Of a DNA stretch of 64,000 nucleotides, positions 4,098 to 28,050 are shown in pieces; within the stretch, counting starts at the first letter, position 1, and each line of letters begins with the position of its first letter. Position numbers and translations under genes: made by a program. This DNA comes from Octopus sinensis (Eukaryota). Where the stretch lies: the NCBI RefSeq assembly GCF_006345805.1, contig NC_043005.1, positions 1,302,001 through 1,366,000 on the forward strand, read 5' to 3'. The notes beneath the pieces were generated by a model. The model saw nothing but the letters and a program-made list of their open reading frames with translations, searched no databases and was not told the DNA's origin.

Positions 4098-4134
4098 TGT
4101 TTCTGAAGAAGATCTTTGCTCAAAACATTAAACC
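4098..4134 (+). ncRNA. Degenerate minimal (type I, PLE-like) hammerhead ribozyme motif, C3-G8 core
   Basis: gttt-CTGAAGA-a-gatc ttt gctc-AAAAC-att-aaac. Stem I is gttt/aaac, stem II is imperfect, and GAAAC has decayed to AAAAC (CpG transition). Lies in a ~230-bp insert (4022-4250) flanked by (TA)n. Confidence 0.55.
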
Positions 4135-4540
4135 ATCTTTCTTTCCTTCCCTCAGCATCTGCTAATACTTTACACGTTCCACATCCTCACGTTGTTGTTT
4201 TTTTGTGTTTGTTCTTCGGTTTTTTTTTTTTTTCAGATTTACTATTTTATATATATATTGTCATTAATATTCAGCAGAAGCAACAGAGTGACTCAAGGCC
4301 TGAGAGCTTCGTGCATTGGCACTTATCAAACTAGCTACAGCTCAAAGAGTTGTGGGTTTATATAGCTGGTGAGAATTACATTTTCCTCTGGATTGCTCCA
4401 GATCAAATTTTAAATAATAACACTGTCATGTGGATAATTCATATTTTTAAAACAGTTTGCCCATTATGTCATTTAATATGTAAATACATAAATAAAGAAG
4501 TAAAGAAATAAAGAGAGAAAGAAACTTGTGCGTATCTTCA

Positions 4541-4640
4541 CACATCACCATTTAACCATTTAATGTCCGTCATCCATGCTGGCATGGGTTGGACGGTTTG
4601 ACCAGGGCTGGCAAGCTGGAAGGCTGTACCAGACTCCACA
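4541..4640 (-). mobile_element. RTE-family 3' end fragment
   Basis: Reverse complement of the family tail gtcaaaccgtccaacccatgccagcatgga...gacgttaaatgatg seen on the ORF-bearing copies. Confidence 0.8.
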
Positions 4641-5689
4641 CACAAATACCCACAAAATTCACACACATATATGAGAGAGTATATAAATTAGAAATATAAG
4701 CATATAAATATACATGCATATACAGACACACGTGCATATATATATATATACAGCATATACACACTCATATACACATATACATTTATATATACATATATAT
4801 ATTTATATATGTATGTATGAATTTGTGTGTTTGTTACTGACATATCAATCTCAACTCTTTCACATAAAGTCAATGGTTGATATGCAAGGCAATTACAACC
4901 GAAATACATGCTAAAGAGGAGCTCCAGCTTTACCCTGGAGGCAAAGGAGGACTGCATCACGGGAGAGACGAGGATTGGTAATGGAGAGGCAAGTTGGCAG
5001 CTGACAACACAGAACATCAAAGGCAACTGTTAGCAGTGTGGAAGAAGTTAAAAGTGGGGATGCAGCAGGAGTCTGAGAGGGAAGTATATTGTTTAATTAA
5101 TTAATTTAGTTATTGACGATTCTCAATATGTAGTTCCTTATAGAGCCCTGATGAAATATCTGAATTCTAGAAATTCTTGTATAACATAACCTTTACAACT
5201 GCAACCATCACAAATTCACAAAAGAAAAAAAGAACGAATGTCAATGAATGAATTTGGAGTTTCCATGAGTAAACGTGACCTAAATCCTTGAATCTGGAAG
5301 CAGCAGAAGCAGCAGCAGCAGCTTCCATCAGTCATCCTAAAGGAAGCGAAGGAGAATAGAGCTGGCACTTTTTAGAATGAAGATGACATAAGAAAAACAG
5401 GAGGCGATGGAGAAATTTAAAGAGAAGAAATTAGATAAAGTGGCACACCCAGATATCCACCCTTTAATTTTGGCTTATTTTGGGAACTGTGTCTACAGGT
5501 GTGTGTGAGTGTGTGTGCGCGCGTGTGTGCAAGCATATATACGTTTATAAAACTTCTGCCCTGTACTCTGGATACTGATCTTGCATCTTAAGCTGACAAA
5601 CAATGCGTTAATATTTCTGAAACAGTGATAACGTAGCCATCACCTGTCTTGTTTTTAAATATGGAAGAAGATATGATTTTCCAGAAACA

Positions 5690-5734
5690 GCAGAGAGAGA
5701 GAGAGGGAGAAAGAGGGAAGAGAGAGAGAGAGAA

Positions 5735-5765
<31 letters not shown>

Positions 5766-5790
5766 TGTGTGTGTGAGTGTGTGTGTGTGC
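5690..5790. repeat. (GA)n/(GT)n compound microsatellite
   Basis: Directly visible. Confidence 0.95.
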
Positions 5791-6081
5791 ACGTGCTATT
5801 GAACTGGTCTGAAAGAAAGGGCATTGTGCTCTTGAATTTCAGAGACTCCCGTCATCAATACAATTAACATTCCTTTTGAACAATGGGAAATCCATAACAC
5901 AACAGACGTGAGTGGAAGGATTTCCACAGCAAGGACAAAGTAGAGTAGTTAATGAGGGTCCCAGGCAGTCACAGAGTAGAGAAAGTGCCATAGTTTGCAG
6001 AAATATTGGTGAACAACTTCAGCCCAATAAGCTGGTTTCCTTTGGATGTAGACAAAAACAGGTCTTTGTGTCCACCCTCTC

Positions 6082-6132
<51 letters not shown>

Positions 6133-6193
6133 ATATTATATATATATATATGATATATTTATATATTATATATGATAATATATAATATATATA

Positions 6194-6293
6194 NNNNNNN
6201 NNNNNNNNNNNNNNNNNNNNNNNNNNNNNNNNNNNNNNNNNNNNNNNNNNNNNNNNNNNNNNNNNNNNNNNNNNNNNNNNNNNNNNNNNNNNN
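6194..6293. other. Assembly gap (100 N) next to a (TA)n tract
   Basis: Run of N. Confidence 1.
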
Positions 6294-6998
6294 GCCACTC
6301 ATATAAACACAAAGTTGACATGGCCTGCAGAATGTGTTCCTGGATTCTCAGAACTTTCCAGTCGACAGATATCCACACCATATCCTTCTCTTCTCCACTT
6401 TTGCCCGACCCCACCTTGAATAGTTGTCCACTGTGGTCTCCACAACAATACAAGGTATCATAAAAGTTGAAGCACCTCAAAGGGCAATCACAAAAAAGAT
6501 AGATGGCATGACAGGCCTCGACTATTGGGGTCGGCTAGAAAAGCTAAAACTCTATTCTCTCCAACGTCGTCGTGAGCGCTACATCATCTGCATGATGTGG
6601 AAAATATTCCATCAGCATTGCCCAAATGATGTTGGCATCACCTTAAGGTACATCCAAGGCTTGGGCCCCGTGCATCCGCCCAAAACAAAAATCGCACTCT
6701 CATCTCATACAATACGGCACAATTATTTCACCTCAATTGGCCCCGCTCTCTTTAACATTACACCAAAACACATTAAAACAGAACTGACCCTATAGGGTTC
6801 AAGAAGTCTTTGGACAGATTCCTTCAAGAAATCCCGGATAAACCCCCTACACCCGGATATGTCTCTGTAAACAATAACTCTCTACTTGAGTGGGCCATAG
6901 TGCCCAAATTCTGACTTGAAAGACTTCACCAGGTGGTGCTATTAAGTTAGACATGGCCTGGGCCAATAATGGCCGAAACCTATCAAAGTATCAAAGTA
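6294..6998 (+). mobile_element. CR1/L2-group LINE 3' fragment
   Basis: Translates to EAPQRAITKKIDGM..LDYWGRLEKLKLYSLQRRRERYII. Ends in a stem-loop (ggcca ataa tggcc gaaac) and a (tatcaaag)n tail. Confidence 0.88.
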
Positions 6999-7010
6999 TA
7001 TATATATCAT

Positions 7011-8085
7011 ATTTTGATTTGATTTTGATTTTTCCAGTTTCAGCTAATGAGCTGTGGCCATGCTGGGGCACCGCCATTTGGTTTGCTATATGATTTTACC
7101 TCACGAATGCTTTTTAGCAACTGCCATTAGGTGCATGAGAGAGTTCGATGCAGCTGCCCTCATCTGCACATCCTGCCGTGAAGTTGGTTCATCCGGAACA
7201 CCTGACAGGAAGAGATCCAGTCCTACTTTAAAGATATCCGCATCTACACCATGCAGGTCCCTCAGGTTCTTCGGGAGAATATTGAAGAGCTGTGGGCCTC
7301 TGAAGCCCAGGCTATCACAGTATCTTGTCCTACATCTTGATGGCAAATTTGGAGTCCTTGGTACTACGCAGTGGCGCCCGGTTCTGGCATTTGTGTGACT
7401 CTCGATGCCAAAGTTTGGGACAAGTCCTTCCAGGATCTTCCAGATATATATTATGGCATATCTTTCTCACCTACGCTCCAGGGAATAGAGCTTTAATCTC
7501 TTGAGTCTTTCCCAGTAGCTTATATGCTGCACAGAGGCTATCTTCTTCGTGTAGCTTCGTTGGATCATCTCAAGTTCTGTGATCAACTTGACACTGGATG
7601 GTGACCATAGCTGAGAGCAATAGTCAAAGTGGCTTAGGACAAGTGTCTTCCAGAGGACCATCATGGTTTCTTGTTCTCTTGTTCTAAAGGTTCTAAGAAT
7701 CTATCCACCCAGCCGTCTACATTTCATTGCCAGTTTAGCAACATGTACATGAAAGGTCGCGTCATCACTCATGTGAATACCCAGGTCATGCACTGATTGT
7801 GCCTCTGGGATTGCAATCCCTCCGGGTCCAGTGTATTCATTGGGTATTGCATTCAGTTTTGCATGCTGATAGCATAAAGCTTGAAACTTTTCAGCATTGA
7901 ACTGCATGCTATTCTTTTCAGCCCACTTGTATATTTTGTCCAGCTCACATTGCAGGTGCTTAGTGTCTTCAGGGTTCTGTATTGCCTGTGAAACTTTTGT
8001 ATCATCTGCATAACTTGTGATCATCGCTCTCTGCGTGGCTGAGGGCATGTCTGAGAGGGCCATTATGAACAGTAGTGGTCCCAAA
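7011..8085 (-). mobile_element. CR1/L2-group LINE, 5'-truncated (RT domain 4 to 3' tail), tail-to-tail with the previous copy
   Basis: Motifs GPLLFIMALSD, SYADDTKV, MQFNAEKFQ, DLGIHM, HFDYCSQLWSP, YWERLKRLKLYSLERR and GPQLFNILPK. Tail is (aaaatc)n at 7011-7030. Confidence 0.9.
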
Positions 8086-8213
8086 ACATATATTACAAAG
8101 GAGTGGCCCTATCCTACAGTGCACAGTAGCTGTTTCTTTGGCATACCTGTAGAAAGCTCTGGGGTTAGATTTTATGTTGTCTATATATTATATATCATAT
8201 ATATATATATATG

Positions 8214-8505
8214 TGTGGCCGATGCCAGTGCCGCCTAGACTGGCTTCCATGCCAGTGGCACATAAAAAGCACCATCCAAACATGGCCGATGCCAGCACCG
8301 CCTTGATTGGCTTCCGTGCCGGTGGCACGTAAAAAGCGCCCACTACACTCTCGGAGTGGTTGGCGTTAGGAAGGGCATCCAGCTGTAGAAACACTGCCAA
8401 ATCAGACTGGAGCCTGGTGCAGCCTTCTGGCTTTCCAGTTCCCCGGTCGAACCGTCCAACCCATGCTAGCATGGAGAACAGACGTTAAATGATGATGATG
8501 ATGAT
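8214..8505 (+). mobile_element. RTE-family 3'UTR copy with two gtgccNNNggcac-aaaaagcacc modules and a (TGA)n tail
   Basis: Same 3' sequence as the ORF-bearing RTE copies at 20100-20350 and 40400-40709. Confidence 0.85.
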
Positions 8506-8533
8506 AATATATCATATATATATTATATATATA

Positions 8534-8914
8534 CAAGCAGTATCGCCCAGCGTTGCTCGGGTTTGTAAGGGAAATAACTATATAAGCATTTTTAGAGATG
8601 TAAAGTATAATAGCCATCTCAATATGGCTAACCACAAAGGGGGGTGTTACTGTGGCTTTTTACGTTATGAGATTTAATAAATTTTTAGAGAGTTACTTCC
8701 CTTATATATGCCAAAAATGCATTAAAAATGGGAAAAATTGATGGTAATTTTTTTTTTAAATTGTAGACGCGCGCTAATACCCAGAAGGGCTCAATATGAA
8801 TCATGACTATAAGATACCGGGTTTTGGTTAAACTGCACCGCAAAATGTGGGAGTAGTTAGGAATCTAAATCGTAGGAGACAGACAGCACACAACCTCACT
8901 TTTATATATAAAGA
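8534..8914 (-). mobile_element. Non-autonomous Helitron
   Basis: On the minus strand it starts TC(tttatatataaaag...) and ends cccgagcaacgctgggcgatactgCTTG, a subterminal hairpin plus a CTAG-like end. Inserted between A and T in a TA tract. The 3' end is shared with 55105-55492. Confidence 0.75.
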
Positions 8915-8991
8915 TATATTATATATCATATATATATTATATATATATATATATATATTATACCATATATATTACAAATATCATATATATA

Positions 8992-8993
<2 letters not shown>

Positions 8994-9023
<30 letters not shown>

Positions 9024-9475
9024 TTAACGTTCGCTTTCAAAGCTGGCATGGGTTGGATGATTTGACTGAGGTCTGGCAAACCAAATGGCTGCACCAGGCT
9101 CCAATCTGATCTGGCAGAGTTTCTACAGCTCAATGCCCTTCCTAACGCCAACCACTCTGAGAGTGTAGTGGGTGCTTTTATGTGCTACCGACACTAGGGC
9201 CAGTCAGGTGGTACAGGCAATGGCCATGCTCAAATGGTGCATTTTATGTGCCACCTGCACAGGAGCCAGTCCAGCAGCACTGGCAACGACCTTGCTCGAA
9301 TATTTTTTCATGTGCCTCCAGCACAAGTGCCAGTAAGGCGATGCAGGTAATGATCACGCTCGAATGGTGCTTTTTACATGCCACCGGCAAAGAAGCCAGT
9401 TTGTTGCTCTGGCAACGATCACACTCGGATGGTACTTTTAGCACTCCACTAGCACAGATGCCAGTCATCGAATTT
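8994..9475 (-). mobile_element. RTE-family 3'UTR copy with about five hairpin modules
   Basis: (CAT)n tail, conserved tail sequence, and repeated ggtgcttttt-a-c/t-gtgccacc units. Confidence 0.85.
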
Positions 9476-9708
9476 GATTTTGATATTATACATGATATAT
9501 ATATTATATCATACATATCATAAATATATATTATATATATATTATAGACATATATATATATATATATATTACGGAGATGTACTTGCATAGTAAGTGACTT
9601 GTTCAGAGATCGTGTGCTGGAACGAAAACAATTGTAGCGTGGAAGGTGTTTATAAGCCATTTAAGAAACAGACAAAAATGTTAGATTTACTTCAACATTT
9701 AAATTTAA

Positions 9709-9759
9709 TTTGTCAAAATAATTTCATCACTTTGAGACCGCGACCTGTTCACTGACAAA
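9709..9759 (-). ncRNA. Minimal hammerhead motif, G3-C8 core variant (left arm)
   Basis: Minus strand reads tttgtca-GTGAACA-g-gtcgc ggtctcaaa gtgat-GAAA-ttat-TT-tgacaaa. Confidence 0.65.
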
Positions 9760-9789
9760 ACTTTGTGCTGCATCTGAGCAGCAGGAAGT

Positions 9790-9840
9790 TTTGTCAGTGA
9801 ACAGGTTGCGGTCTCAAAGTGACGAAACTATTTTGACAAA
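9790..9840 (+). ncRNA. Minimal hammerhead motif, G3-C8 core variant (right arm)
   Basis: tttgtca-GTGAACA-g-gttgc ggtctcaaa gtgac-GAAA-ctat-TT-tgacaaa, with a 7-bp stem I and a 5-bp stem II. Confidence 0.68.
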
Positions 9841-9931
9841 TTAGATTTAAATGTTGAAGTGAATCTAACATTTTTGTATGTTTCTTAAATGGTTTATAAA
9901 CACCTTCCACGCTGCAATTATATATATATAT

Positions 9932-10243
9932 ACGGTGGCATGTAAAAAGCACCATCCGTTCGTGGCCATTGCCAGCCTCGCCTGGCCCCGTGCCGGCGGC
10001 ACGTAAAAAGCACCATCCGTCCGTGGCCGTTTGCCAGCTCCATCTGGCACCTGTGCGGGTGGCACGTAAAAAGCGCCCACTACACTCACGAAGTGGTTGG
10101 CGTTAGGAAGGGCATCCAGCTGAAGAAACTTTGCCAGATAAGACCGGAGCCTGGTGCAGCCTTTTAGCTTCCCAGATCCCCGGTCGAACCGTCCAACCCA
10201 TGCTAGCATTGAGAACGGACGTTAAACGATGATGATGATGATG
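9932..10243 (+). mobile_element. RTE-family 3'UTR copy (three hairpin modules, CpG-rich, apparently young)
   Basis: gtgccggcggcacgtaaaaagcacc modules, conserved tail and (TGA)n. Confidence 0.85.
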
Positions 10244-10945: not shown

Positions 10946-11149
10946 CTTGACTGAACCCAGAGCAAAAACCAGTTCCCAACCTCCATGTTATAAATGTAAA
11001 TCCCACCCTTCCCCACACCTCTAATACCCTTCCAAATATTGGAGTATCAAACAATCTAACAAACGACCACCCCACACCTGATAACCCCTAATACACCACA
11101 ACCCCTCCAAAACCCTAGCTCCACCCAGGTAATCCTACCCCCAATCAGA

Positions 11150-12670
11150 TTAAATGAACTAGACCCGAAGACATCAACTGGTTCCACCCCAGTCACCCAT
11201 AACATCCAGATTTGAGCACCCAAACTCTTCTTTGCCCTACTTGAAAACCATTTCCCTAAATCTAACCCACTTAGAAAAATATTTAACCCCCAATCTATAA
11301 AATTGTCCTACTCCACCATCACCAACATTGCCGGAGTTATCTAAAATCTTAACATGAAACTCTAAAATCCATTAATGGCCAACCCCCACCCGAGTAAATT
11401 AATTCAACATAATCCTCAACTCCATACACATAACCCAATGCACCAACTGACCCCGCTGAACAAAACTAGCTCTCATAACTATAATGCCAATGCTAACACC
11501 AGATCCTTAAATGTACAACACCCAAATATACCTCCTGTCATAATAGAGAACATCCTAGAGGATACCACTGGACACAATAATTATCATACCATACAAACCA
11601 ACAACACCACCATCAACTCTTTATCAAACGACAACCTTGATAAGTGCACAGTATCAACTAACAACTGCAATTGCATTTACATCAGCTCATGTAGCACCAC
11701 TTTGTAAGCTAGGGTGAGAAATCCCTACTCTAGCAGTCCATTGTTATCTCAACTTATCAGTAAACTAACACTTGATTCAACCCCTTACACTCTCAAATGG
11801 TCCAGTCACCCACACTAACCCTTACTGTGGATATAACAAGTGGGATCTCTGCATAGTGGCTATTTTGCAATCCACGGATTGTCTCAATGAACACAGTAGT
11901 ATAATATTCATCTGCAAACAGAGGGCACCAAATCTATTCCCAAAATACAAATAACTACAACCTCACCCTGCTCTTATTTTCCCTTAACTCTCATATATAC
12001 ATATATATTTTTCGCCCACTCATCCACCCTCACTACCACCACTTTCTATTAAACCAACAATATCTTTTTCCTTTTTTAATTCCTTGATTGTCAATTACTA
12101 AATTCTCTCTGTATTTATATTTGGTATCTAAAATATTTTTCTTTCCTTTTATTTCAACTCCCTCCCCCTCCATCCTACATAAACTTACACCACTTCACAT
12201 TTTTTTTTTCTTACCTTTTCTGCTTGTTTCTGCCTTCCACAATAAAAGCCTTTTGACTACCAACAAAATTCCTCACCCTACCTTGCTTTATTCATACACA
12301 TTTTCTTTTTTTCCCCATGACTGAAAACATTTCCTCACCCTCTCCCCTCCAATTTTTATCTTTTCTTCTAGTACCAAACCTACTACTAAATTCTGTGATT
12401 TAGCCAAAACCACTATGCTCTCCCCTACCAGTCAACTGACCTTACTCAATTCCTCCTTCCTCTCCCTTATATTTTCTCTTCTTTCTTCCCTTCTTCTAAT
12501 ACTTATTTCTCCCTACATATATGCACCCCTTTCATACCTCCTTGCAACAATGTAACCTTTAATCTAATCAAGATATCCTTGACCTGAAAAGTAACCAGTG
12601 GTATACACTTCACCTGGATTTTACCACTTCTGAGGTTTCACACACTAACAAACATATGTAGCCTGGATTT
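11150..12670 (+). mobile_element. Penelope-like element (Naiad-type) 3' half: RT thumb, GIY-YIG endonuclease and pyrimidine-rich 3'UTR, heavily decayed
   Basis: Frames read INWFHP..., LLENHFPKSNPLRKIFNPQSIKLSYSTITNI, CTVST..YISSCSTTL (YIG-like), KWS..HTNPY..KWDLC and LNEHSSIIFICKQR. These match the WFNPP / KHFP / KIFNRNT.K.SYSC / C.LC / LN.RSE..C.H pattern of these PLEs. Confidence 0.75.
12623..12664 (+). ncRNA. Highly degenerate hammerhead remnant at the PLE 3' end
   Basis: CTTCTGA-g-gtt...aac-AAA-catatg-TA. The core differs from CTGATGA/GAAA, but the palindromic stem III (acatatgt) and the position at the PLE terminus fit. Confidence 0.35.
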
Positions 12671-12737: not shown

Positions 12738-14036
12738 CAGGGTGAGGCAAAGAGGTCAGAGGTTTTTGAAAAATTCAAAATCATTAATTTTAGCTGCAAG
12801 CAAATTTTATTGACGCCAATGTGTTTGTATTGAATTAGCATTTGTCAAAATCAAATGTGGAAAACAACATCCATCATGTGGTGTCCATTTTCCTTGATGC
12901 ATTTCTGAAGGTGTTCTTGGAAGTAGGTTTCCACTCTTTCTAGCAATGTTCTGTTGATTTGGGTGACTTCCACACGAATAGTTTCTTTCAAATCATCCAA
13001 TATGCGGCACATACACACGCACTTTGAGGTTTCCCCACAAGAAATAATCACACATGGACAAATCAGGGGACAGGGGGGGGGGGGGCAAGGAAGGACAACA
13101 AATCTGGAAGTGAGGCAGTCACTGAAAAGAGGGTGAAGAACATCCATTGATGCTCTGGCTGTGTGGGCAATCGCCCCATCCTTCTGAAGCCACACATGTT
13201 GAATAGGGATGCGTTTCCGTCGTAATTCAGGCACAAAGAAGTCAATCGTCCTCTCGATGTAATGCTCGGCATTCACAGTAACAGCATTCCCATTGTTGTC
13301 TTCAAACAAGTACAGACCAATGACAGCAGCTTTTCCAACAGTACACCAGACCATTACATTGGGGCTGTGCAGTGGTCTTTTGTGCAGTTCTCTCGGATTT
13401 TCAAGAGCCCAATAACGACAGTTCTGTTGATTCACCATGCCATTGAGATCAAAATGAACTCCATCACTCATTAACAAAATGCAGTTGTCATTTGCCTCAA
13501 AAATTACTTCCATCTGACATGCAAAGTTAGGCTGCTGCACATAGTCCCATGGTTTCAACTGTTGCCCAGTGACCAATTTACATGGGTGGAAATACAGGGG
13601 GAATGCAAAATATGCCTCACCGCTCAATTACTGATGCCAAGTTCAGTGGAATGTCTCCGAGCAGAGCGATTCGGACTCCATATGAAAGCTTGTCTGACAT
13701 GTTCCACATTTTCCGGGGTCCGTACCGTTCGTGGCACTCCACTGGTCTGCTATTCATTAGTGTACCTCATGTACGAAGTGCATTCACCCAACATAAGATT
13801 GTGTTACGGGTGGGAACAGCCTGATTTTGATGACTATTGAAGTGGCACTGAAACTCACACTGAACTGCTGCGACAGATGTGTTATTCTTCATGCAACTGT
13901 CATAAGCAGACATGCAATGCTCTCTGAAAAAAGAATGCTAAGATACCACAAGCCGAATGCTACCTGTTGGACATATGTCTCTCCTCTTGGGTTGAGTAAT
14001 AGCCATTTCAAAAATGTCCATCCTCTATACCCCACC

Positions 14037-15234: not shown

Positions 15235-17100
15235 AAGAGGACAAAGATTAAGTGGCCGAAAGCAAATGACGCAGCGAGTTATAAAAAAATTTGACAGCGA
15301 GGTAGCAAGAATGACCACCAAATTCAAAGACGACGACGAACAAAAGCTGGAAAACCTGGTTAATACAATCTACCAGGAAGGAGAGAAAAGATTTGGACTG
15401 GAAACAACGGGGAAGGTAGAATCAACAGCAAAGAGCTGACCATCGAGGAGAGAAAGATGGATAGCAAAGATTTGAGAAGAGAAGAAAGATAGAGGGATGC
15501 AAAGGAGGAGGAAAGAGAAGGGCTAAAGCAGCTATATGAAGAGATAAAAAGGAGGCATTGAGATCTTCTAAGAAAACAAAGAAGGGGGAGCAGAAGAAAG
15601 GAGAGAGAAAAGAACTATCGTAGCTTTGTGAACAATCCCTATCAATATGCGAAACATCTATTTACTGAAAGTAAAAGCAGAAAAATGAATTGCACGAAAG
15701 AAGAGCTCGAACAACATCTGAAAGAGACGGAAAACTAAGGCACGCAGATGTAGTCGGAGCGACACAAGAAGCACAATTTCAGGCCATTTTGCAAGAGCAG
15801 TATAAAAGAGATGAAAGAGGCAGTGGTATACGAAGTGAGAAAGGAGGAAGAAGAAAGGCAAAATGTACATTTGGCGCAATGTAGCCAAAAGGGACAGTGC
15901 CTGAGATGGGAGGAATATGTGATCAACCGCAGAATATCATGGAAAGAACTTTGGGCTTGGGAACAAGCAAGAACATCCTTCCTGTTCAAGTCTACCTTCG
16001 ACGTTCTACCCTCACCGGCAAACTTAGTCCGATGGAACATAAAAACAACCGATGAGTGTAGATGCGGAGAGAAAGCGACAGTCAGACATGTTCTGTCAAA
16101 TTGCAGACTAGCACTAGAAAGATATACATGGCAGCATAATCAAGTCCTCGGCGTCATTAAGCACAAGAAGATCGGGAGGTACAATAGGGGAGAATACCCA
16201 AAAGTAGAAAAGCGCAGGAAAGTATACTTCCACAAGGCGGGAAAAGGTTATAAAACCAGGCCTACAAGTAAAGTATACGAGATAGACGAAAGATGGAAGG
16301 GATACTGGGAGGTGGCCACGGACTTGGAAAGACTAGTAATATTTCCGCTAATGAAAACAACAAAAAGACCGGATTTAGTCCTATGGGACAGAGACCGGAG
16401 AATAGGAATTTTACTAGAACTAACAGTACCTTGGGAAGAGAACATCGGCAATGCAGAGAAATGTAAGAAGAGATACGAAAAGCTAATCGAAGAATGCAGA
16501 GAACAGGGATGGAATGTCGAGTATTACCACCTAGCAGTGGGGGCTAGGGGCTTCATTGAAAAAAAAATGACAACGCTTTTCAAAAGAAGATTTGTTTTTT
16601 CTAGATCGGAGCTGCGAAAACTAATAAGGAGAGTACAGGAGGCGGTCGTAAAAGCCAGCTTCTATATATGGCTGAAGCGGGAAGACCGAAAATGGCTTGA
16701 AAGTCATAACATGCCGGCGGAGAATAACATCACTAGGTGAAACAAGCTGACACTGAATCAGCTTCACTCACTGACAGGTGACGGTCGTTTAGAGAATGCG
16801 TGGGCTAAGACTACGCGCCTTCACTAGTCAGTTAAAGTTGAGTCACTGTCACGTGACAACTTGCTGGGACTGCCTGCTGGAGCCTAGCAGCAAGTAGTTA
16901 AAGGGAAATTTGACAAGACAGTCTGTCGCCCGCTGACACTACATCAAAGAGGCCAAAGAACAGAAGAAAGAAGACATACACCCAACACCAGAGCTGAAGA
17001 CACCTCTGAAAGGAGGGGGGGCTACCACGTCAAAACGGTAGAGGAGTAGGGGCTGAAACCAGATGTGGTTCCTCCTGGTGATGTCTTGAGCTAACTGGAT
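15235..17100 (+). mobile_element. HERO/NeSL-like RLE LINE with the RT domain deleted
   Basis: The pre-RT region (KIKWPKAND, SFVNNPYQYAKHLF, TKEELEQHLKET) joins near 15729 to the post-RT region (LRHADVVGATQ). The CCHC finger and RLE follow. The 3' boundary is uncertain. Confidence 0.8.
15811..16740 (+). CDS. Open 309-aa ORF: CCHC zinc knuckle + PD-(D/E)xK restriction-like endonuclease of the HERO-like LINE
   Basis: Motifs FDVLPSPANLVRW, CRCGEKATVRHVLSNC, RYTWQHNQVL, RPDLVLWD, LLELTVPWEE, KKRYEKL, VGARGF and ASFYIW. Confidence 0.8.
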   Translation: MKEAVVYEVRKEEEERQNVHLAQCSQKGQCLRWEEYVINRRISWKELWAWEQARTSFLFKSTFDVLPSPANLVRWNIKTTDECRCGEKATVRHVLSNCRLALERYTWQHNQVLGVIKHKKIGRYNRGEYPKVEKRRKVYFHKAGKGYKTRPTSKVYEIDERWKGYWEVATDLERLVIFPLMKTTKRPDLVLWDRDRRIGILLELTVPWEENIGNAEKCKKRYEKLIEECREQGWNVEYYHLAVGARGFIEKKMTTLFKRRFVFSRSELRKLIRRVQEAVVKASFYIWLKREDRKWLESHNMPAENNITR

Positions 17101-17566: not shown

Positions 17567-18011
17567 CTAGAAATATGTTACAAAAAGAAAATAGAAACTA
17601 CACGAGGTAATGTAAGGGGAAAGTAAGAAAAATAAATGAAAATGCACATTATAAATCAAAAAAAGTAAAGGCTTTTTATGAAAAGTAACGAAAGATGTAT
17701 ACAATTAGATGAACTGAGGTAAAAGTATTATAAAAGTCATTATTGTGAATTGTTAAAGAGATTCAAAAGCATACCGGTTTTGTAAGTTACTAATCATTTA
17801 ACAATTCAGCAATGATTAGTAACTTACAATTAGTAACTTACGAAACTGGTATGCTTGAATCTCTTTAACAATTCACAATAATGACTTTTATTACTTTTAT
17901 TCCTACCTCAGTTCATCTAATTGTATATATCTTTCATTACTTTTCATAAAAAGCCTTTACTTTTTTTTGACTTACAATGTGCAATTTTGCTTATTTTTCT
18001 TACTTTCCCCC
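17560..18011. mobile_element. Penelope-like-derived palindromic element (arms ~17615-17797 and ~17812-18011)
   Basis: AT-rich inverted arms of ~180-200 bp, with hammerhead-like motifs at the centre. Flanked by (TA)n. Confidence 0.72.
17804..17860 (+). ncRNA. Minimal hammerhead motif, A3-U8 core variant
   Basis: agca-ATGATTA-gtaac ttac aatta gtaa cttac-GAAA-ctgg-TA-tgct. The mirror copy on the minus strand (17761-17797) reads ATGATTA-gtaacttac-AAAA-ccgg-TA-tgct. Confidence 0.6.
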
Positions 18012-18046
18012 TATATATATGTATATATATGTGTATGTATATATAT

Positions 18047-20499: not shown

Positions 20500-20745
20500 A
20501 TGCATGGTTGTGTGTTTAAGAAGTTTGCTTTTCAACCACATGGCCTTGGGTTCAGACTTACTGCTTGGACAAATTCACACCTTCTGGACCAATTTTGTCC
20601 AATTTTGGTGGAGACTACAGTTAATTAGATTGTCCCTAAGAAAGCTGAAAGGTAGACTTGACTTTGGACAAGTGTCTTCTGCTACAGCCCAGGGCTGACC
20701 AAAACCTTGTAAGTGGTAATTAGAAATTGAAAGAAGTCTGTGGTG
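20500..20745 (+). mobile_element. tRNA-derived SINE head containing a ~100-bp complex insertion
   Basis: Matches the SINE head (aagtttgctt..caaccacatgg..gggttcag...ttggacaagtgtcttctgcta). Interrupted at 20565-20661. Confidence 0.7.
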
Positions 20746-20799
20746 TGTATGTATGCAGGTGTGTGCAGTGTTCATTTCCAGTCTTCTATGGAAAACATC

Positions 20800-21620
20800 A
20801 AACCATGCTCTGTCTATGATCCAGCATAGTTTGTTTTTTTCCTCATTTAAGACTATGTCCAGTCTCCTCTTCTCTATCTCATGGTCGCACTGAATCATAA
20901 AATCCCATAGTATCTTTCCATTTCTATTTTTGACAATGCCTTCAGGTTTTTGGACATACCAATTTTTTTGCTCTGTTAACTCCATACTTGTTGCAAAGTA
21001 ACCAATGGACAAGCCTGGTCATATTGTCGTGGTGTCTCTTATATTCCTTCTGGGCTAGTGGCATAGGATGGTACTTTTCTGCAGGCTGACAACGTGAGTC
21101 TCAGTTCCAATATCTTCGTCTTTTAGCTGGCATTTCGAGTGCTGTGTCAAGAGCACCAATTACCACAGGAATAATTGCTGTCCTGGTCTTGTACTCTCTC
21201 CTCCTTTCTCTGGTTAGATCTTGATATTTCTGCACTTTTTCCAACTTCTTTGGTACCAACTCTGCTATAATAGTGAACTGTAAAAGTCTATGACTGTATG
21301 TTGTTTATTTTGTCTTCTGTAACCATATCTGCTCTTCTTGCTTCAATAGTATGATCAGTTTTTAGGAGGGAGTCCATCAGATCCTGCAATTCTCATTCTC
21401 TGATGCAACCTCTCCTTCATATTCATACCACTTTCCTATTGTTTCAGCTAACATCATTAAACACTTTTGCACTCACACTCATTCTCTTCTAGTATGCTGC
21501 ACTTACTCAAGAGATGAGTGATACTTTTATCTCCTTTCCTCATTTGCTGCTTGACTAAGTTTTGTTGACCTTTGCTTTTATCAGATCTGTCCTATTGGCT
21601 TGATTCTGAGTGGCTGCTAT
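20800..21620 (-). mobile_element. Two adjacent R4/Dong-like RLE LINE fragments (20800-21065, 21070-21620)
   Basis: LAQKEYKRHHDN, KILWDFMIQCDHEIEKRRLDIV in the first. AATQNQA, EKVQKYQDL and IIPVVIGAL in the second. Confidence 0.75.
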
Positions 21621-21844: not shown

Positions 21845-22240
21845 TTCCTAACTTTGGCACAAGGTCATAAATTTTGAAGTAATTTCTTCAAAGATCATTA
21901 GTATTTCACTGGTAGTTTTTAAATTTTATTTTATCAACCACAGAAGGATGAAAGGCAGCCCCTTTGGGAATTACTAAGTCAGAAGGAGAAGAGCAGCACT
22001 TATAACTATTTCCAAGGACTCCAGCATTTGAACTGAGAAGATAATAAGATACAACCTAAATATCGTAAAGCATTTTATTTGGTATTTTCCTGGTTCTGCC
22101 AAACGGTATTTTGTTGCATCCTTTTACATTGAAAAGGAACTTCTACTTAGCTCAAGTTTACCTTTCAGCCTTCTTAGGGACAATCTAATTAACTGTAATC
22201 TCCACCAAAATGTATGGCGTTGTGCCTATGTTACAATCTA
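21845..22240. mobile_element. Decayed copies of a second SINE family (21845-22105 minus; 22140-22240 plus)
   Basis: Share the tttcatcc..gggtc and ggccttgtgcc motifs with 31005-31166. Confidence 0.5.
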
Positions 22241-23304
22241 CCATTACTGAAGAGGTTATGTTTGATAGTGAAAAGAAATGATGGAAACTCAATCAATTAA
22301 TTCTATAAGCCAGAGTAACTAAAAGAAAGAAGAGGAGTGATGGAAAAAAGTGATGAATGTATTTGGTGGAGATGGCTACAATAGGTATTCCTTTGCACTA
22401 CAGTGTCTGAGGTTTTAAATGATTTCTTAGTAAGAAGAAGATTAACGGATGACTAGAACCAGATGCCAATAATAGTTAGAGGGTAACGCAGAAATAAACA
22501 TAGAAAAAGGTAACCAACAACAAGTCTGTTAAAATTTAACAGAATAAATACTTTTAATTACTCAGCTTAGTCAAAATATTTTCTAATTAAAAGAGTAAAG
22601 AATATAATTATAAACAGAGATTATGCCAAGATCATAAAGCATTTATTCTCCATCTGTTTTGGGACCATTCCAATAAAAGCCTGTTCAATAAAGAGGATGA
22701 TCACCACAATCAATATTATCAAGAATTGAGAGTTGGTATTTCAAGAACACTACACCTAGACGAGGGTTGAAGTTGTTTAGTCCAAGAGTTAGCCCTCAAC
22801 AAGTAAACTTATGAACAGAGCCCTTTCAGTTGTGATATCGTGCATTTTTAGGGTATATATGTGCTTTTCTGTGGTTGAAGGTTGTAAAACATAATTAGGG
22901 AAAATTCAGCCACTATTTCTAGCAAGTCATATAACTGCACAGAAGCTGCATTGTTGGATGGCATAAAGTTTCCCACATTGGCTAAATACAAGAAAGGGTC
23001 TAAAGTGGTGGTCATAGGGAAACTGTGGAATATATAGCTGTGAATTCTGATTTAATACAAATATATAATGTTCACGCTACTCCGATGGCCTTAGTGGTAT
23101 AAACAGCCCCAACTAGCTTGTAACTCAGTTTGAAAATATGACTACCTTTGAAGGATGTCTATTTCAAAACAGGGCATTTCTTTAGAAGCAGAGGGATCAG
23201 AAGTCACACCCAAAATAATACAATTCATTTTGCCACAAAAGGATACATTAATATTTGTAAATTTTATATACTGGCCTTTATTGACACAGACCACCACTAC
23301 CAGT

Positions 23305-24614
23305 TTAGACAAGTGGTTGGTGAGAGCTGTACAATCCATGTACAGGGATGCAGTCAGTAAGGTGAGGGTTGGCAATGAGTATAGCTATGAATTCAGGGTA
23401 CAAGTAGGGTTCACCAGGGATTGGTCCTCAGCCCTCTCCTGTTCATCATAGTCTTCCAGGCAATAATAGAAGAATTTAAGACAGGCTGCCCCTGGGAACT
23501 CCTCTATGCTGATGATCTTGTTCTTATAGCTGAATCACTACCAGAACTAGAAGAAATTTCAGGTGTTGAAGCAAGGTCTAGAATCAAAGGGCCTTAAAGT
23601 TAGCCTAGCAAAAACCAAAGTCACAGGTAGATGGCCCTGCTCCATTTGTAGGAAAGCCATAGGTAGAAATTCTATAAAATGTACACAGTGCAAACTATGG
23701 ACATATAAGAGGTGCAGCAATATCAGTGGAAGGTTAACTGGGAAAAAAATTTTTGTGTGTGGAAGGTGCACAGGTACAATAAACACTAAAAATGTACAAA
23801 CGCCAGGGAGGTAGGCTAGGGGTAGTTGATAGCTTCTGTTATCTAGGTGACTAAGTCAGTAGCGAATGTGGATACTCTGAGAGCATAGCTGCAAGAATAA
23901 GAATAGGCTGGGCAAAGTTCAGAGAGCTCCTACCTCTGCTGGCAACAAAAGGCCTCTTCTTCAGTGTGAAAGGCAGATTGTATGATGTTTGTGTGTGAAC
24001 AGCTATGTTGCACAGCAGTGAAACATAGGCTGTGACTGCTGAAGACATGTACAAGCTAACTGTGGAAGGAACCAGAGGAAGAGGTAGACTTAGGAAAACA
24101 TGGGATGGGTTGGTGAAGCATGATATTTGAATGCTGAGCTTCATGGAGGCAATGACCCATGACTAAGACCTTTGGTGATACGCCATGCTTGAGAAGACCT
24201 GTCAAGCTAAGTGAAATCATAGTCATGGCCGATGCCAGTGTCAGGTAACTGGCACCTGTGCCAGTGATACGCAAAAAGCACCTTTCAAGTGTTGGGCCTC
24301 ACAGAGGCAATGTGGCTGCTGCTGCTGGTGTTGTACAACTGGCACCTGTGCCAGTGACACATAAAAAGCAGCTTCCGAGCATTGGGTCACACAGAGGCAA
24401 CAAATGCCTGAGTAGAAGACCCATCAAGCCAAGCGAAGTGATAGTCATGGCAGACACTAGTATCATGTAAAAGCACTCTTGGAGTGATTGGCGTTAGGAA
24501 GGGCAAAGGGCATCCAACCATTGACTGGAGTCTGATGTAGTCCTTCAGCTAGCTAGCCCTGATCAAACTGTCCAACTCATGCCAGCAGGGACAATGGACG
24601 TTAAATGATGATGA
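23305..24614 (+). mobile_element. RTE-clade LINE 3' part with YADD motif and PHD-like insertion
   Basis: GCPWELLYADDLVLIAES, GLKVSLAKTKV, WPCSIC...CTQC...YKRC...CGRC, VVDSFCYLGD and RIRIGWAKFRELL, followed by the 3'UTR and tail. Confidence 0.92.
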
Positions 24615-24974
24615 TTTGGGGTCGCAACTTAGTTTGCTAAAACCTTATTACTGTATTACAGTACCCATCACACATGGGAGACTACTATATTTATAAGAGC
24701 AGTAGTAGCAGTAGTATGGGACCATGTGCTGTAACAGTATGTCACCACATCCACCATTTGTTGGTGATTCCCTATGACTGCTGACGAATGACACCTTTGC
24801 ACCACTTAGGCGACAACCTGACAACCCATGGGTCTGTTTAGGTGGTCATTGTTGGTGAGGGTTTTATGTAGGCTGGAGTGCAATTTCTACCTCAACCGCA
24901 TTTAGTCACCTTCTACAACAAGCAGAAGAATGATTGGGTTTCTTCTTTCGACAGTCCCCCACACATCACTGTGA

Positions 24975-25092
24975 ACAATGTGAAATGAAGTGTTTTGCTC
25001 AGGGCACAGCATAATACCACCTGGTTCAGGAACTGAACCCATGGTCTGGTGATTGCGAGTGCACCACCCTAACCACTGGGCTATACACCTTC
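24975..25092 (-). mobile_element. tRNA-derived SINE head (third family)
   Basis: Minus strand has an A-box-like tagcccagtgg and a B-box-like gggttcagttcc, followed by ccctgagcaaaacactt. Confidence 0.65.
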
Positions 25093-26154
25093 ATGTATAT
25101 TTATACATAAAAGATTTTACATGCAACTAAAGTATTTCTAATATTTATTGCTCAATTTAATCAGCAATCCAATAGAGAAGATTTGAAAAGTGATTTTCAG
25201 AAATATTTTGTAAAGAAGCAACAATTATGGCAAGATGCATTGCTTACCCACCAAAGCACCCACAACCAACTCTAACCTCTCCAGATCAATAACATATCCA
25301 TTTAAAAATTCTATTCCAATACGTTTCAGACTCAAAGAAACAATTTTTTTAATTTGCTTTTCTTCAACATTTTGTGTAGATGTGTGCTTACATGTGTGCA
25401 TGTATTGTGCTTTATGTTTTTTATTGTACTAAAATCATGAATCTATGAATCTAGAAATACACACGCAGCAGCAACAGCAGCAACAGCAGCAGCAGCAGCA
25501 GCTGTAGTAAGAGTGATACGGACATCAGACTCATAGACTGAGTTTCTATGCATTGTTGTTACAAATTATAATTTCAGCTCAAGTTGCCCTTTTAATATAC
25601 ACGAGGAAAATGTTTTAAAGGATTTTATTTGTTTTTATAAACTGCAGCAATGATAGAAAGACAAATCAGGTTCTTCAGATGAAGATAGAGAAATGTCTTT
25701 GATTTTAGTAGTTTTTAATTGTTGAGAGGGAGAGGGAATAGCAAAGAATGCAAGAGAATGAAGAGAGAGGATAGCAAAGAGTGAGAGAGGGGGAGAGGAG
25801 ACAGACAGGCAAAGGCAATAATGAAATGTTGCTTTATGATTTCTGATAAATTGTCAAATCAACAAGTGTCTAACCACAATAAAAAAAACCAGTAGTAACA
25901 TGTCTGAATGATTTTTAACAGTCTGCCAGGCAATCTAGGAAATGGCTTTTAGTTATTATGGTCTGGCAGTTCCTAGTCTGCAGACAGAGGGCGGAATGAT
26001 GCTATTATAAGAATGTAGTAGGCTGTATGGTGTAGCAGTGAAATCTCAGAGAACATAAGTTTGCAACGTAGATTCCTCGTAGGAACTGTTGCACTTCACC
26101 TATGTCACCAATGCTACAGGGGGAAAAGCATCAATATTTCTCTTGCCTCCTTAG

Positions 26155-26345
26155 CATGCCAGGCAAAATGCTTAGCAGCATTTCATCTATTATTACATTC
26201 TAAGTTCAAATTCCACTGAGGTTGACTTTGCTTTCCATCCTTTTAGGGTCATTAGAATTAGAACCAATTGAGCAGTGGGGCTGATGTAATCGACTTAGCC
26301 ACTTCCCCAGAATTGCTGGCCTTGTACCAAAATTTGAAATCAATA
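26155..26345 (+). mobile_element. SINE, second family
   Basis: aagttcaaattcc B-box-like, gactttgctttccatcc..gggtc core and gctggccttgt...gaaa tail. Homologous to 31005-31166. Confidence 0.7.
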
Positions 26346-26447
26346 TTTCTGTTCCCTTCAAAACCTTAAGTCAATAACAATAACCAGTAACATTGTTCAA
26401 GTTTTAGGGTTGAGTAAATTCACTCTGTTTAAATTCATAAGCTTTTA

Positions 26448-26640
26448 CATCATCATCATTTAACATCTGTTTTCCATGCTGGCATGGGTTGGATGGCTTG
26501 AGAGGAACTGGCAAGGCCAGGAGCAGCAACTGATTCCATAGTCTGTTTTGGCATGGTTTCTATGGCTGGATGCCCTTCCTAATACCAGATGCATTACAGA
26601 GTGTACTGGGTGCTTTTTATGACACCAGCACTAGTGCATT
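26448..26640 (-). mobile_element. RTE-family 3' end
   Basis: (CAT)n tail plus catgctggcatgggttgga and ggctggatgcccttcctaa. Confidence 0.8.
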
Positions 26641-27299
26641 TTATGGGGCACCAGTGCTTTTTAAGTGGTACCAGTACTGTGTTTTTACCCTTGTTAGAAA
26701 TCATTAACACAGTAGAGTGTCAGTATTGGAAAAGAAGAGACAAATACTTAACAATATTTAATCTAAAATCTCTTCCTTCTAAATTCAATCTTTACATATG
26801 CCATTTTTATTTTCCATTGCTATGGTATTCATAAAGTATATATCAATCACAGTTTATGAATTATGCCTCTCCTTTAAAATTTAATACTCTGCATAAATGG
26901 GAACTTATCTTTATCATTACTGAACAAAGAAAATGCAGACACTGCATGTTGCATTCTAAGGAATTTATTTATAAGATGTGTATCGAAACAAGAACCGATG
27001 CAGAAGAGAATGGATTCTTCAGTCATCCTACTACAGGAAACCTTTCTAGTGCTGGTAGCATCCATACTGTAAATTAGGTGAGATGCTTTGAATGCCATCC
27101 AACCTACATAAGCCAGACCAAAAAAGACATAAAAATGATGATGTATGGCAGTGGATTTGTAAGAGTGTCTACTCCCCACCATCCACCCCAAAATTTCAGG
27201 TCTCGTGCCTATAGTAGAAAGGATTATCATTATCATGTGATCAAAACTCACAGCTTATTTTGCTGGGTATGATGGAAAGTGTCAGCTGTCCAGAGCCAG

Positions 27300-27830
27300 C
27301 AGACTAAGGTGACATTTGTTTACTGGTCATGCTTCAAGAATCCTGCAAAGAATTCTTGCAGTTCCAAGCAATGCTGATTCTTGTAGGGGTGTTCTAACTT
27401 CACACTTGCACCAATCTTTTTCCGCCATGCTGGTAGTTGAGTGCTGATACTTCCAAGTGCACTAATTACAATTGGTATCACCTCTACTCTCCTCATTGTC
27501 CACAACCTTCGTATTTCCCACTTTAAATCGCCATAGTTGTTTATTTTTTCTTCTTCTTTCACATTGATCCTGTTGCCACTGGGACATGCTATATTGATAA
27601 TTATACATGTTCTTTCACTTTTATTCACCACAACAATGTCCAGTTTCCAATGTCTGGTCAGGTGATCGCACTGGATCACTGCATCCCACAGGATTTTGCA
27701 GTTCTCATTCTTGGTGGCTCCTTCTGGGGTTTGCTCATACCATGTCTTTACTCATTGAGGGCCGTGATTTCCACAGAGCTCCCAATGGATCATTCTTGTC
27801 ACATTGTCATGTTGTCTTTTCAGTTCTATA
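27300..27830 (-). mobile_element. R4/Dong-like RLE LINE 3' fragment
   Basis: RHDNVTRMIHWELC, then WDA.IQCDHL...DIVVVNK..CIIINIACP...KEEEKINNYGDLKWEIRRLW..VIPIVISALG. Confidence 0.85.
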
Positions 27831-28050
27831 TTTAAGAAATGAGGAATTATGTACATTATTTACATTTGACGGATATTTGTCCTCACCGTGTTTGTTGTTA
27901 ACACAATGTTTTGGCTGATATACCCTCCAGCCTTCATCAGGTGTCTTGGGGAAATTTCAAACCTGGGTTCTCATTCCTAAGGTATTTTTTGATGTTATTA
28001 TTATTATTATTATTATTCAGATCACCACCTGGAATTGAACTCGAAATCTT
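27831..28050 (-). mobile_element. Short element: tRNA-like B-box + (TAA)n + hammerhead-bearing tail
   Basis: Minus strand order is gagttcaattcc (28031-28042), (aat)n (27995-28017), then a hammerhead at 27900-27945. Confidence 0.55.
27900..27945 (-). ncRNA. Minimal type I hammerhead ribozyme motif, canonical C3-G8 core, CpG-decayed
   Basis: gacac-CTGATGA-a-ggctg gagggtatat cagcc-AAAA-ca-TT-gtgtt. Stems I and II are intact. Two CG>CA changes convert the expected cGAAAcgtt. Confidence 0.75.

What the first reader, a model, noticed from the sequence alone, without database searches (positions are those of the whole stretch)
4098..27945. A small 'zoo' of PLE-type minimal hammerheads spanning three different 3-8 core pairs
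Seen in sequence: within 24 kb there are C3-G8 motifs (4098-4134, 27900-27945), G3-C8 motifs (9709-9840), A3-U8 motifs (17761-17860) and a remnant at the end of a coding PLE (12623-12664). Most sit in or next to (TA)n or (TAA)n tracts. Inference: this genome hosts a diversified system of short non-coding ribozyme retroelements mobilised by PLE enzymes. Family-specific cores and stem III palindromes could restrict dimer pairing to members of the same family. This is the best candidate for an undescribed system in the window. PLE hammerheads as such are already known.
Basis: partly seen in the sequence, partly recalled or inferred. Interest (0 to 1): 0.8.

Follow-up and report, generated by a model that had tools for sequence, protein, structure and literature searches.

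The report
Penelope-element hammerheads with swapped core pairs
These are minimal hammerhead-type RNA motifs at the ends of five families of Penelope-like jumping genes, three of them broken end-pieces of protein-coding elements, and across this genome the motifs use all four possible base pairs at one core position, which likely records selection for self-cleavage in the once-active elements.

Summary
The motifs are real and above chance: 3 strict hits in the window against 0.03 in shuffles, and 8 complementary-core hits against 0.13 in an unbiased 0.8 Mb sample. They belong to five dispersed repeat families with minimal type-I hammerhead anatomy.

The reading 'short non-coding retroelements' holds for one family at most. 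The G3-C8, A3-U8 and 12584 families run upstream into GIY-YIG or RT reading frames of Neptune-like and Hydra-like Penelope-like elements (PLEs), so they are 5'-truncated PLE ends. The 4098 family is unresolved. The 27945 family has a Pol III A/B-box head, no reading frame upstream, and two head-to-head junctions with truncated coding PLEs, so it is a likely PLE-mobilised SINE.

A U3-A8 family also exists, so all four Watson-Crick 3-8 pairs occur. One PLE lineage switches between G3-C8 and A3-U8 while keeping stem I and the palindrome, so the core pair does not insulate families. Stem I plus palindrome would.

The window copies are decayed. PLE hammerheads are known. I found no report of natural G3-C8 or A3-U8 cores, but the most relevant paper was unavailable.

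The parts
4022..4258 (+). C3-G8 family b element (about 235 nt) between (TA)n tracts; no coding partner found
   Evidence: 0 of 42 copies have a same-strand PLE protein hit within 1.5 kb upstream
4099..4133 (+). decayed minimal hammerhead: core 4103-4109 (C3-G8), G12 changed to A at 4122, family palindrome ACGT broken
   Evidence: sequence; family alignment
9566..9775 (-). G3-C8 family, left arm with the long 3' end (tail); hammerhead 9759-9709; 5'-truncated end of a Neptune-like PLE
   Evidence: link to reading frame in L402
9778..9919 (+). G3-C8 family, right arm with the short 3' end; hammerhead 9790-9840, core 9797-9803
11104..11998 (+). decayed reading frame (RT thumb, linker, GIY-YIG end) of a Hydra-like PLE, broken by stops and frameshifts; probably starts nearer 10850
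12581..12663 (+). decayed C3-G8 hammerhead with a long stem II insert at the 3' end of that PLE; core 12584-12590 (G8 changed to A), palindrome 12652-12659
   Evidence: same motif downstream of PLE frames in L232 and L252/L280
17562..17800 (-). A3-U8 family, left arm; core 17797-17791, 5' strand of stem I lost at the junction, G12 changed to A
17805..18012 (+). A3-U8 family, right arm; hammerhead 17808-17855 with a copy-specific 14-nt duplication; 5'-truncated end of a Neptune-like PLE
27822..28050 (-). C3-G8 family a: SINE-like element, 5'-truncated here; head remnant with B box 28018-28050, internal (AAT)n 27995-28017, body to 27822
27900..27945 (-). decayed minimal hammerhead: core 27940-27934 (C3-G8), G12 changed to A at 27912, family palindrome ACGT broken

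Best explanation
The motifs are minimal type-I hammerhead motifs at the 3' ends (pseudo-LTRs) of several Penelope-like retroelement families, three of the five window families join protein-coding PLE sequence upstream, and the window copies are decayed, 5'-truncated insertions likely made by target-primed reverse transcription at AT-rich repeats. Shown: fixed 3' ends in long and short forms, ragged 5' ends, head-to-head arms, (TA)n targets, joins to GIY-YIG/RT frames, and paired changes at positions 3 and 8. Inferred: in the active element the motif folds as a dimer through stem I and the palindrome, probably with help from the PLE protein, and cleaves slowly; selection on master copies kept a Watson-Crick 3-8 pair while its identity drifted; inserted copies then decayed neutrally. 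Inferred: the 27945 family is a Pol III-transcribed SINE that borrows PLE enzymes. The two arms of one insertion probably come from two priming events, which would explain junctions between the SINE and coding PLEs.
For: A3-U8: of 25 loci fetched by the endonuclease peptide, at least 20 show the core motif 200-550 nt downstream; longer relatives carry RVT_1 and GIY-YIG. G3-C8: L402 joins the motif through a (CATA)n-rich UTR to a frame 58% identical to the L376 protein, Pfam GIY-YIG E 8e-5; four loci reach the endonuclease end. 12584 family: downstream of PLE frames in the window, L232 and L252/L280. U3-A8 family: conserved in 8 of 8 loci, with an endonuclease-like frame upstream in several. 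3-8 linkage in one lineage, first 100 of 229 rows: 82 A-U, 12 G-C, 1 A-C, 0 G-U, 5 other (Fisher P 2e-14). The G-C copies form one clade (95/91 and 97/92). Core and non-core columns decay alike in copies (0.017 v 0.015, 0.035 v 0.031, 0.026 v 0.043). 79 of 257 cores have a head-to-head partner within 1 kb, 1 of 257 a same-strand one. Published matches: solo and opposite-strand motifs from truncated PLEs and U3-A8 (PMC4209133); tails, AT-rich cleavage on both strands, protein-assisted cleavage and partial rescue by C3G/G8C (PMC11167929).
Against: No cleavage was tested. The G-C/A-U switch is one event on the tree, not many, and its direction is unresolved. Only one locus (L402) shows the whole join for the G3-C8 family, and none of the 25 distinct copies of the set reaches the endonuclease end. 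The 4098 family has no coding partner in 42 copies. The U3-A8 and Hydra-like frames have no significant Pfam hit; they are assigned by motifs and similarity. No complete PLE with both pseudo-LTRs was recovered for the G3-C8 or A3-U8 families.
Confidence: 0.85

Rival explanations
1. All or most families are short non-coding ribozyme retroelements (retrozyme-like) with their own unit-length or circular RNAs, mobilised in trans by PLE enzymes.
For: Most copies are 150-450 nt and lack coding sequence. The 27945 family has an A/B-box head and 0 of 63 copies with a same-strand frame upstream. The 4098 family mostly starts at one place.
Against: Three of five families join reading frames. Head-to-tail arrays, the mark of non-LTR retrozymes, are nearly absent; six same-strand or distant pairs examined held no hammerhead-unit array, and four were larger duplications. 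A known coding family also shows a 5' pile-up, and the apparent hard 5' end of the G3-C8 family proved an artefact.
Confidence: 0.08
2. The motifs are non-catalytic structural signals or dead relics: the fold serves protein binding or priming, and cleavage plays no part.
For: Reported min-HHR activity is low (PMC4209133). Hammerhead mutants did not affect insertion in vitro, and no reads ended at the cleavage site (PMC11167929). The youngest Neptune-like subfamily has a 2-bp stem II and an altered GAAA segment.
Against: Every family keeps U4/G5/A6/A9/GAAA, a non-G at 17 and a Watson-Crick 3-8 pair, a tertiary contact of the active core. The paired change is hard to explain without the catalytic fold.
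Confidence: 0.2
3. Family-specific cores and palindromes evolved to keep dimers within a family (insulation under selection).
For: In a 7 x 7 pairing table, full stem I plus stem III forms only within a family or lineage.
Against: The core pair is intramolecular; G3-C8 and A3-U8 subfamilies of one lineage are fully cross-compatible; palindromes recur across families. Divergence of stem I is expected from drift alone.
Confidence: 0.1
4. Chance matches in AT-rich repetitive DNA.
For: Relaxed descriptors give false hits: allowing one mismatch in GAAA added two window hits that were not followed up.
Against: Shuffle tests, family-level conservation, constant sense orientation 3' of PLE frames.
Confidence: 0.01

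Closest known systems
Minimal hammerheads (min-HHR) in pseudo-LTRs of metazoan Penelope-like elements (Cervera and de la Pena 2014, PMC4209133)
   Same: Type-I fold with palindromic stem III, G10.1, optional base after A9; many sequence families per genome; mostly solo or opposite-strand copies from truncated PLEs; a U3-A8 core variant in Schistosoma.
   Different: G3-C8 and A3-U8 cores in high-copy families, all four pairs in one genome, and a switch inside one lineage are not in the parts of the paper I read.
Neptune-clade and Hydra-clade EN+ PLEs, including Hydra-1_Obim of Octopus bimaculoides (Craig et al. 2021, PMC8557442)
   Same: RT then C-terminal GIY-YIG; CX2-5CxxC linker (L376, L402) or RWK, DKT, CxCX5C (L261); (TA)n targets; inverted 5'-truncated partner; hammerhead near the 3' end.
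   Different: Every hammerhead row in their File S2 has a C3-G8 core; clade labels here rest on motifs, not on a tree with reference proteins.
Poseidon of Anolis (PAc), the one PLE studied in vitro (Frangieh et al. 2024, PMC11167929)
   Same: Two 3' ends (tail), AT-rich targets, uncut RNA as template; engineered G3-C8 partly active.
   Different: Here G3-C8 is natural; different clades.
Schistosoma SINE-like promoter-plus-hammerhead repeats (as summarised in PMC6765202) and animal non-LTR retrozymes (PMC7229834; bioRxiv 10.64898/2026.07.22.740005)
   Same: Non-coding units with a type-I hammerhead; proposed non-autonomous PLE derivatives.
   Different: The 27945 family has a minimal hammerhead, is dispersed as single or head-to-head copies rather than tandem arrays, and shows direct junctions with coding PLEs.

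Membership tests
PLE minimal hammerhead (type I) | Core N3-UGA-N-N8-A and GAAA with a Watson-Crick 3-8 pair | tested here: met
   Met at family level in all five window families and the U3-A8 family. Not met in the window copies at 4099, 12581, 17797 and 27945.
PLE minimal hammerhead (type I) | Stem I of 3-7 bp and stem II opened by G10.1 | tested here: met
PLE minimal hammerhead (type I) | Palindrome from A15.1 to U16.1, and H17 not G | tested here: met
   AATATT, ACCGGT, ACGT, ACGT, ACATATGT, ATAT in intact copies
PLE minimal hammerhead (type I) | Self-cleavage as a dimer | not testable with these tools
   needs an assay
EN+ Penelope-like element (G3-C8, A3-U8, 12584 families) | Motif lies in sense 3' of an RT + GIY-YIG frame | tested here: met
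EN+ Penelope-like element | 5' truncation, inverted partner, long and short 3' ends, microsatellite targets | tested here: met
EN+ Penelope-like element (4098 family) | Coding frame upstream | tested here: inconclusive
   0 of 42 copies within 1.5 kb; these copies were selected by a short query, and five extend slightly further
Neptune clade | CX2-5CxxC linker before a C-terminal GIY-YIG | tested here: met
   the feature is shared with Nematis
Neptune clade | RT phylogeny with reference PLEs | not tested
Hydra clade | RWK, DKT, CxCX5C | tested here: met
   All three in L261; DKT and CxCX5C-like motifs in decayed relatives of the window element
Non-LTR retrozyme | Head-to-tail tandem units of 150-450 bp, each with a hammerhead | tested here: not met
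   1 of 257 cores has a same-strand neighbour within 1 kb (a slight undercount); none in the window
Non-LTR retrozyme | Abundant circular RNA | not testable with these tools
   no run on record as RNA, contigs only
tRNA-derived SINE (27945 family) | Internal Pol III promoter: A box at about +8, B box at tRNA spacing | tested here: met
   14 of 30 head ends keep an A box, 10 of them 34 nt before the B box; chance 1e-5 per 150 nt; box consensus recalled
tRNA-derived SINE (27945 family) | Head recognisably derived from a tRNA | tested here: inconclusive
   ARAGORN 0 of 12 loci; no Rfam tRNA hit on the head
tRNA-derived SINE (27945 family) | 3' part shared with an autonomous partner | tested here: inconclusive
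   No similarity to the four PLE families held; two junctions with coding PLEs

The most novel reading that the evidence does not exclude
The 27945 family is a Pol III SINE of about 270-300 nt and roughly 30,000 copies that carries a PLE-type minimal hammerhead and is inserted in trans by Penelope-like enzymes, possibly of two clades (Neptune-like and Hydra-like), with mixed insertions recording two different RNAs used in one integration event. Alongside it, PLE lineages of this genome explore all four 3-8 core pairs, so descriptors fixed on CUGANGA miss whole ribozyme families, perhaps also in PLE clades now said to lack hammerheads.
Probability: 0.45. Interest if true: 0.65.

Novelty: new variant of a known kind. 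Interest (0 to 1): 0.42.

Why it matters
The role of hammerheads in Penelope-like elements is open: activity in vitro is weak and was dispensable for insertion in the one system tested. A natural paired switch of the tertiary 3-8 pair inside one lineage is comparative evidence that the catalytic fold was under selection, and it supplies matched natural variants for assays. High-copy G3-C8 and A3-U8 families show that standard descriptors undercount these ribozymes. A SINE with direct junctions to coding PLEs would be a tractable case of trans-mobilisation by PLE enzymes. The cluster in this window is otherwise ordinary PLE debris.

Tried and rejected
Hard 5' end of the G3-C8 family: 30 of 30 copies chosen by a 33-nt pattern had no shared upstream sequence other than their own inverted arm, and I first read this as a 215-nt non-autonomous element. 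Loose ends in public contigs showed another upstream sequence; 610 copies carry it, and it leads through a (CATA)n tract to a PLE frame. The first result came from the pattern chosen and is rejected.

CTGAGG at 12630 as the core: no A9, no stems; the true core is upstream.

Same-strand pairs as tandem PLEs or retrozyme arrays: L311-L313 and L315 are larger duplications and L314 an inverted duplication; the repeat unit at C2:2.03 Mb holds no PLE frame. Two other same-strand runs (C1:150.62 Mb, C29:12.36 Mb) were not examined.

Long upstream match in the 4098 family (L106, L117): an unrelated LINE fragment beyond a (TA)n tract.

Rooting the G-C/A-U switch with L402: outgroup branch too long, root unresolved.

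Folding of the G3-C8 end piece: z = 0.37, no signal.

Expression: no RNA holder listed; four runs laid were contigs of uncertain kind, no ends callable.

Rfam: no hammerhead hit in the window; no tRNA hit on the SINE head.

The unbiased sample stayed at 0.8 Mb, so the census is small.

Lunse et al. 2017 (PMC5785218) was not held.
Full report
SETTING. The window lies on a 110-Mb contig of a 2.72-Gb animal genome. A PLE protein from it reads much like the published Hydra-1_Obim of Octopus bimaculoides (by eye), so the host is probably an octopus.

OBSERVATION. A descriptor for minimal type-I hammerheads with positions 3 and 8 free finds the two G3-C8 arms (9797 +, 9752 -) and the A3-U8 motif (17812 +). 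Local dinucleotide shuffles give 0.03 complementary hits on average, and 0 of 100 reach 3. The two C3-G8 motifs and the remnant fail the scan because the window copies are damaged. At 4122 and 27912 G12 is A and the palindrome is broken; at 12584-12663 G8, G12 and stem II are changed. All five are members of dispersed families with 5199, 1806, 1559, 3828 and 1344 first-look candidates, and their copies show the intact anatomy. The remnant's real core is at 12584, upstream of the stated start; its stem II holds an insert of about 55 nt.

CENSUS. In 80 evenly placed 10-kb stretches a strict scan gave 4 hits against 0.4 shuffled. A version allowing long stem II gave 8 complementary hits (6 C3-G8, 1 G3-C8, 1 U3-A8) against 0.125, and 2 non-complementary against 1.1; one of the two is a mutant copy of the 27945 family. 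This descriptor was written after the families were seen. Copies of the five families in the sample numbered 6, 0, 9, 5 and 1. That is roughly 20,000 (G3-C8), 30,000 (27945), 17,000 (4098 with related subfamilies) and 3,000 (12584), with wide error, and no estimate for A3-U8. An exact 34-nt pattern of the G3-C8 family with 3 and 8 free has 1098 matches; of the 100 listed, 85 are G3-C8, 15 differ at one position and none at both. The U3-A8 hit is also a family (1382 candidates; core intact in 7 of 8 loci, one U4C). All four Watson-Crick pairs therefore occur in this genome.

WHAT THE FAMILIES ARE. A3-U8: L051 runs from the motif through a UTR into a GIY-YIG frame. A search with that peptide gave 7653 candidates; of 25 loci fetched, at least 20 show the core motif downstream, and longer relatives carry RVT_1 and GIY-YIG with a CX2-5CxxC linker. 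G3-C8: most copies stop within 30 nt of the core, and a pattern-chosen set of 30 suggested a hard 5' end. That was an artefact. Loose ends in public contigs led to 610 copies with a further upstream motif. These pass through a (CATA)n tract, and L402 reaches a frame 58% identical to the A3-U8 lineage protein (Pfam GIY-YIG). Four loci reach the endonuclease end: 3 of 10 copies in the set, 1 of 6 in the random sample, 0 of 25 in the set. 12584: follows a decayed frame in the window and in L232 and L252/L280; it is about 30-40% identical to a young, nearly full-length family with RWK, DKT and CxCX5C, the Hydra-clade marks. 4098: 0 of 42 copies have a same-strand PLE hit within 1.5 kb upstream, and most start at one place after (TA)n. 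The coding 12584 family shows a similar pile-up, so this is unresolved. 27945: upstream of an (AAT)n linker lies a head with an A box about 8 nt from its start and a B box 34 nt further (14 of 30 head ends keep the A box, 10 at that spacing; chance 1e-5 per 150 nt; box consensus recalled). ARAGORN and Rfam do not call it a tRNA. 0 of 63 copies have a same-strand frame upstream.

INSERTION PATTERN. Families have fixed 3' ends and ragged 5' ends, long and short 3' forms (30 and 22 in the 27945 family), and head-to-head partners: 79 of 257 cores within 1 kb, against 1 of 257 same-strand (sets were partly chosen with inverted queries, and the same-strand count misses at least L300/301 and L078). 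Among head-to-head junctions, 104 join like with like and 3 join different families. One of the 3 has a (TA)n spacer and is discounted. The other two join the 27945 element directly to a truncated Neptune-like body (L378) and a truncated Hydra-like body (L239). About 0.08 such placements are expected by chance in the 85 coding-PLE loci (P about 0.003; shared target preference is not modelled). L378 has a 10-nt microhomology, so later recombination is not excluded.

CORE SWITCH. Within the Neptune-like lineage the core reads GTGAACA, GTGATCA, ATGATTA or ATGAATA. A 21-nt pattern with 3 and 8 free has 229 matches; the 100 listed are 82 A-U, 12 G-C, 1 A-C, 0 G-U and 5 other (P 2e-14). On trees built from endonuclease and UTR sequence without the ribozyme, the G-C copies form one clade (95/91 with 35 rows; 97/92 with 30 rows, six loci dropped for short sequence or unreadable core). 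This is one event, and its direction is not resolved. Within families, core columns decay as fast as other columns, so inserted copies are neutral fossils and the paired change must have been fixed in active masters (inference).

DIMER SPECIFICITY. In the double hammerhead, stems I and III form between molecules while 3 and 8 lie on one strand (established topology, PMC4209133 Fig. 1 legend). A pairing table from natural copies gives full stem I plus stem III only within a family or lineage; the G3-C8 and A3-U8 subfamilies of one lineage pair fully (only one intact G3-C8 copy was available); the two ACGT families share stem III but form 0-1 bp of stem I. ACCGGT and ACATATGT recur in unrelated C3-G8 hits. 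The core pair does not insulate. Stem I plus palindrome would, though drift alone predicts that.

MECHANISM. Shown: anatomy, joins to frames, insertion pattern, paired change. From the literature: a PLE protein nicks AT-rich DNA on both strands, primes inside the RNA at two sites that give the tail, uses uncut RNA, and assists hammerhead cleavage; C3G/G8C partly rescues (PMC11167929). Inferred: each arm here is one priming event; internal microsatellites and the promoter region set preferred 5' stops; slow protein-assisted dimer cleavage processes tandem transcripts of the active element; the 27945 RNA is made by Pol III and loaded by PLE proteins.

WHAT IS KNOWN. Minimal hammerheads in PLEs, solo and opposite-strand copies, and U3-A8 are published (PMC4209133: parts 1-2 of 4 read, one of two supplements searched, no octopus entry there; PMC3088659: passages, U3-A8 natural). 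An octopus Hydra element with a C3-G8 hammerhead is in PMC8557442 (passages, section 11, supplement part 2 and term searches); every hammerhead row there has a C3-G8 core, and three short motifs from the families here were not found in that file. Retrozymes as non-autonomous PLE derivatives: PMC7229834 (passages) and bioRxiv 10.64898/2026.07.22.740005 (parts 1-2 of 5; supplements closed). Promoter-plus-hammerhead SINE-like repeats of Schistosoma: PMC6765202 (passages). PMC11167929: parts 1-2 of 4. PMC3884650: passages, G3-C8 only as an engineered variant. The Octopus vulgaris repeat annotation PMC13282606 has no mention of hammerheads or ribozymes (term search). Searches showed no report of natural G3-C8 or A3-U8 cores, or of a PLE-mobilised tRNA-headed SINE with a hammerhead. 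Lunse et al. 2017, on small hammerhead variants of PLEs, was not held and I saw only its citation; it may already list these cores. Repbase and Dfam were not available.

VERDICT. Real, mostly explained by known PLE biology, and not a new system. The added value is the four-pair spectrum, the within-lineage switch and the SINE candidate. New variant of a known kind; interest 0.42.

Noticed in passing
L261-L267 (G000:C3:18.42 Mb and others): Young, high-copy Hydra-like PLE with frames up to about 700 aa, 95-99% identical between copies, in inverted pairs; its hammerhead has U4 changed to C in the youngest copies and an extra U before GAAA, as in published Hydra-clade motifs.
   Followed up: partly
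L376-L384: Youngest Neptune-like subfamily has an A3-U8 core, a 2-bp stem II, an extra base inside the GAAA segment, a longer palindrome and a paired change in stem I; either an unusual active variant or a decaying ribozyme in a still-active element.
   Followed up: partly
L281-L283, L299-L303, L307, L311, L312, L314: One G3-C8 inverted insertion has been captured in a larger repeat of 1 kb or more and amplified with it, which inflates G3-C8 counts.
   Followed up: partly
L155, L185, L194, L226, L227, L135, L270: Further C3-G8 families with very long stem II inserts (35-80 nt) and 6-8-nt palindromes.
   Followed up: no
G000:C1:150622839-150624011 and C29:12355889-12356652: Three same-strand A3-U8 motifs 576 nt apart and three G3-C8 motifs about 365 nt apart; possible short tandem arrays, not fetched.
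   Followed up: no
L051, L054, L058 and others: Some A3-U8 copies carry a duplicated half core (a second A3-U8 strand) 22 nt upstream of the full motif.
   Followed up: no
window 496-3178: Decayed LINE with AP endonuclease and RT domains (Pfam PF03372, PF00078).
   Followed up: partly
window 15754-16740 (+) and 27320-27751 (-), 20575-21018 (-): Open frames that look like C-terminal parts of restriction-endonuclease-type non-LTR elements (recalled resemblance; no Pfam hit).
   Followed up: no
window 12851-13627 (-) and 56250-58570 (-): Fragments resembling Tc1/mariner and hAT-type transposases (recalled resemblance).
   Followed up: no
L151-L230: 15 A-box/B-box pairs in 0.8 Mb, from several other tRNA-headed SINE families.
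   Followed up: no
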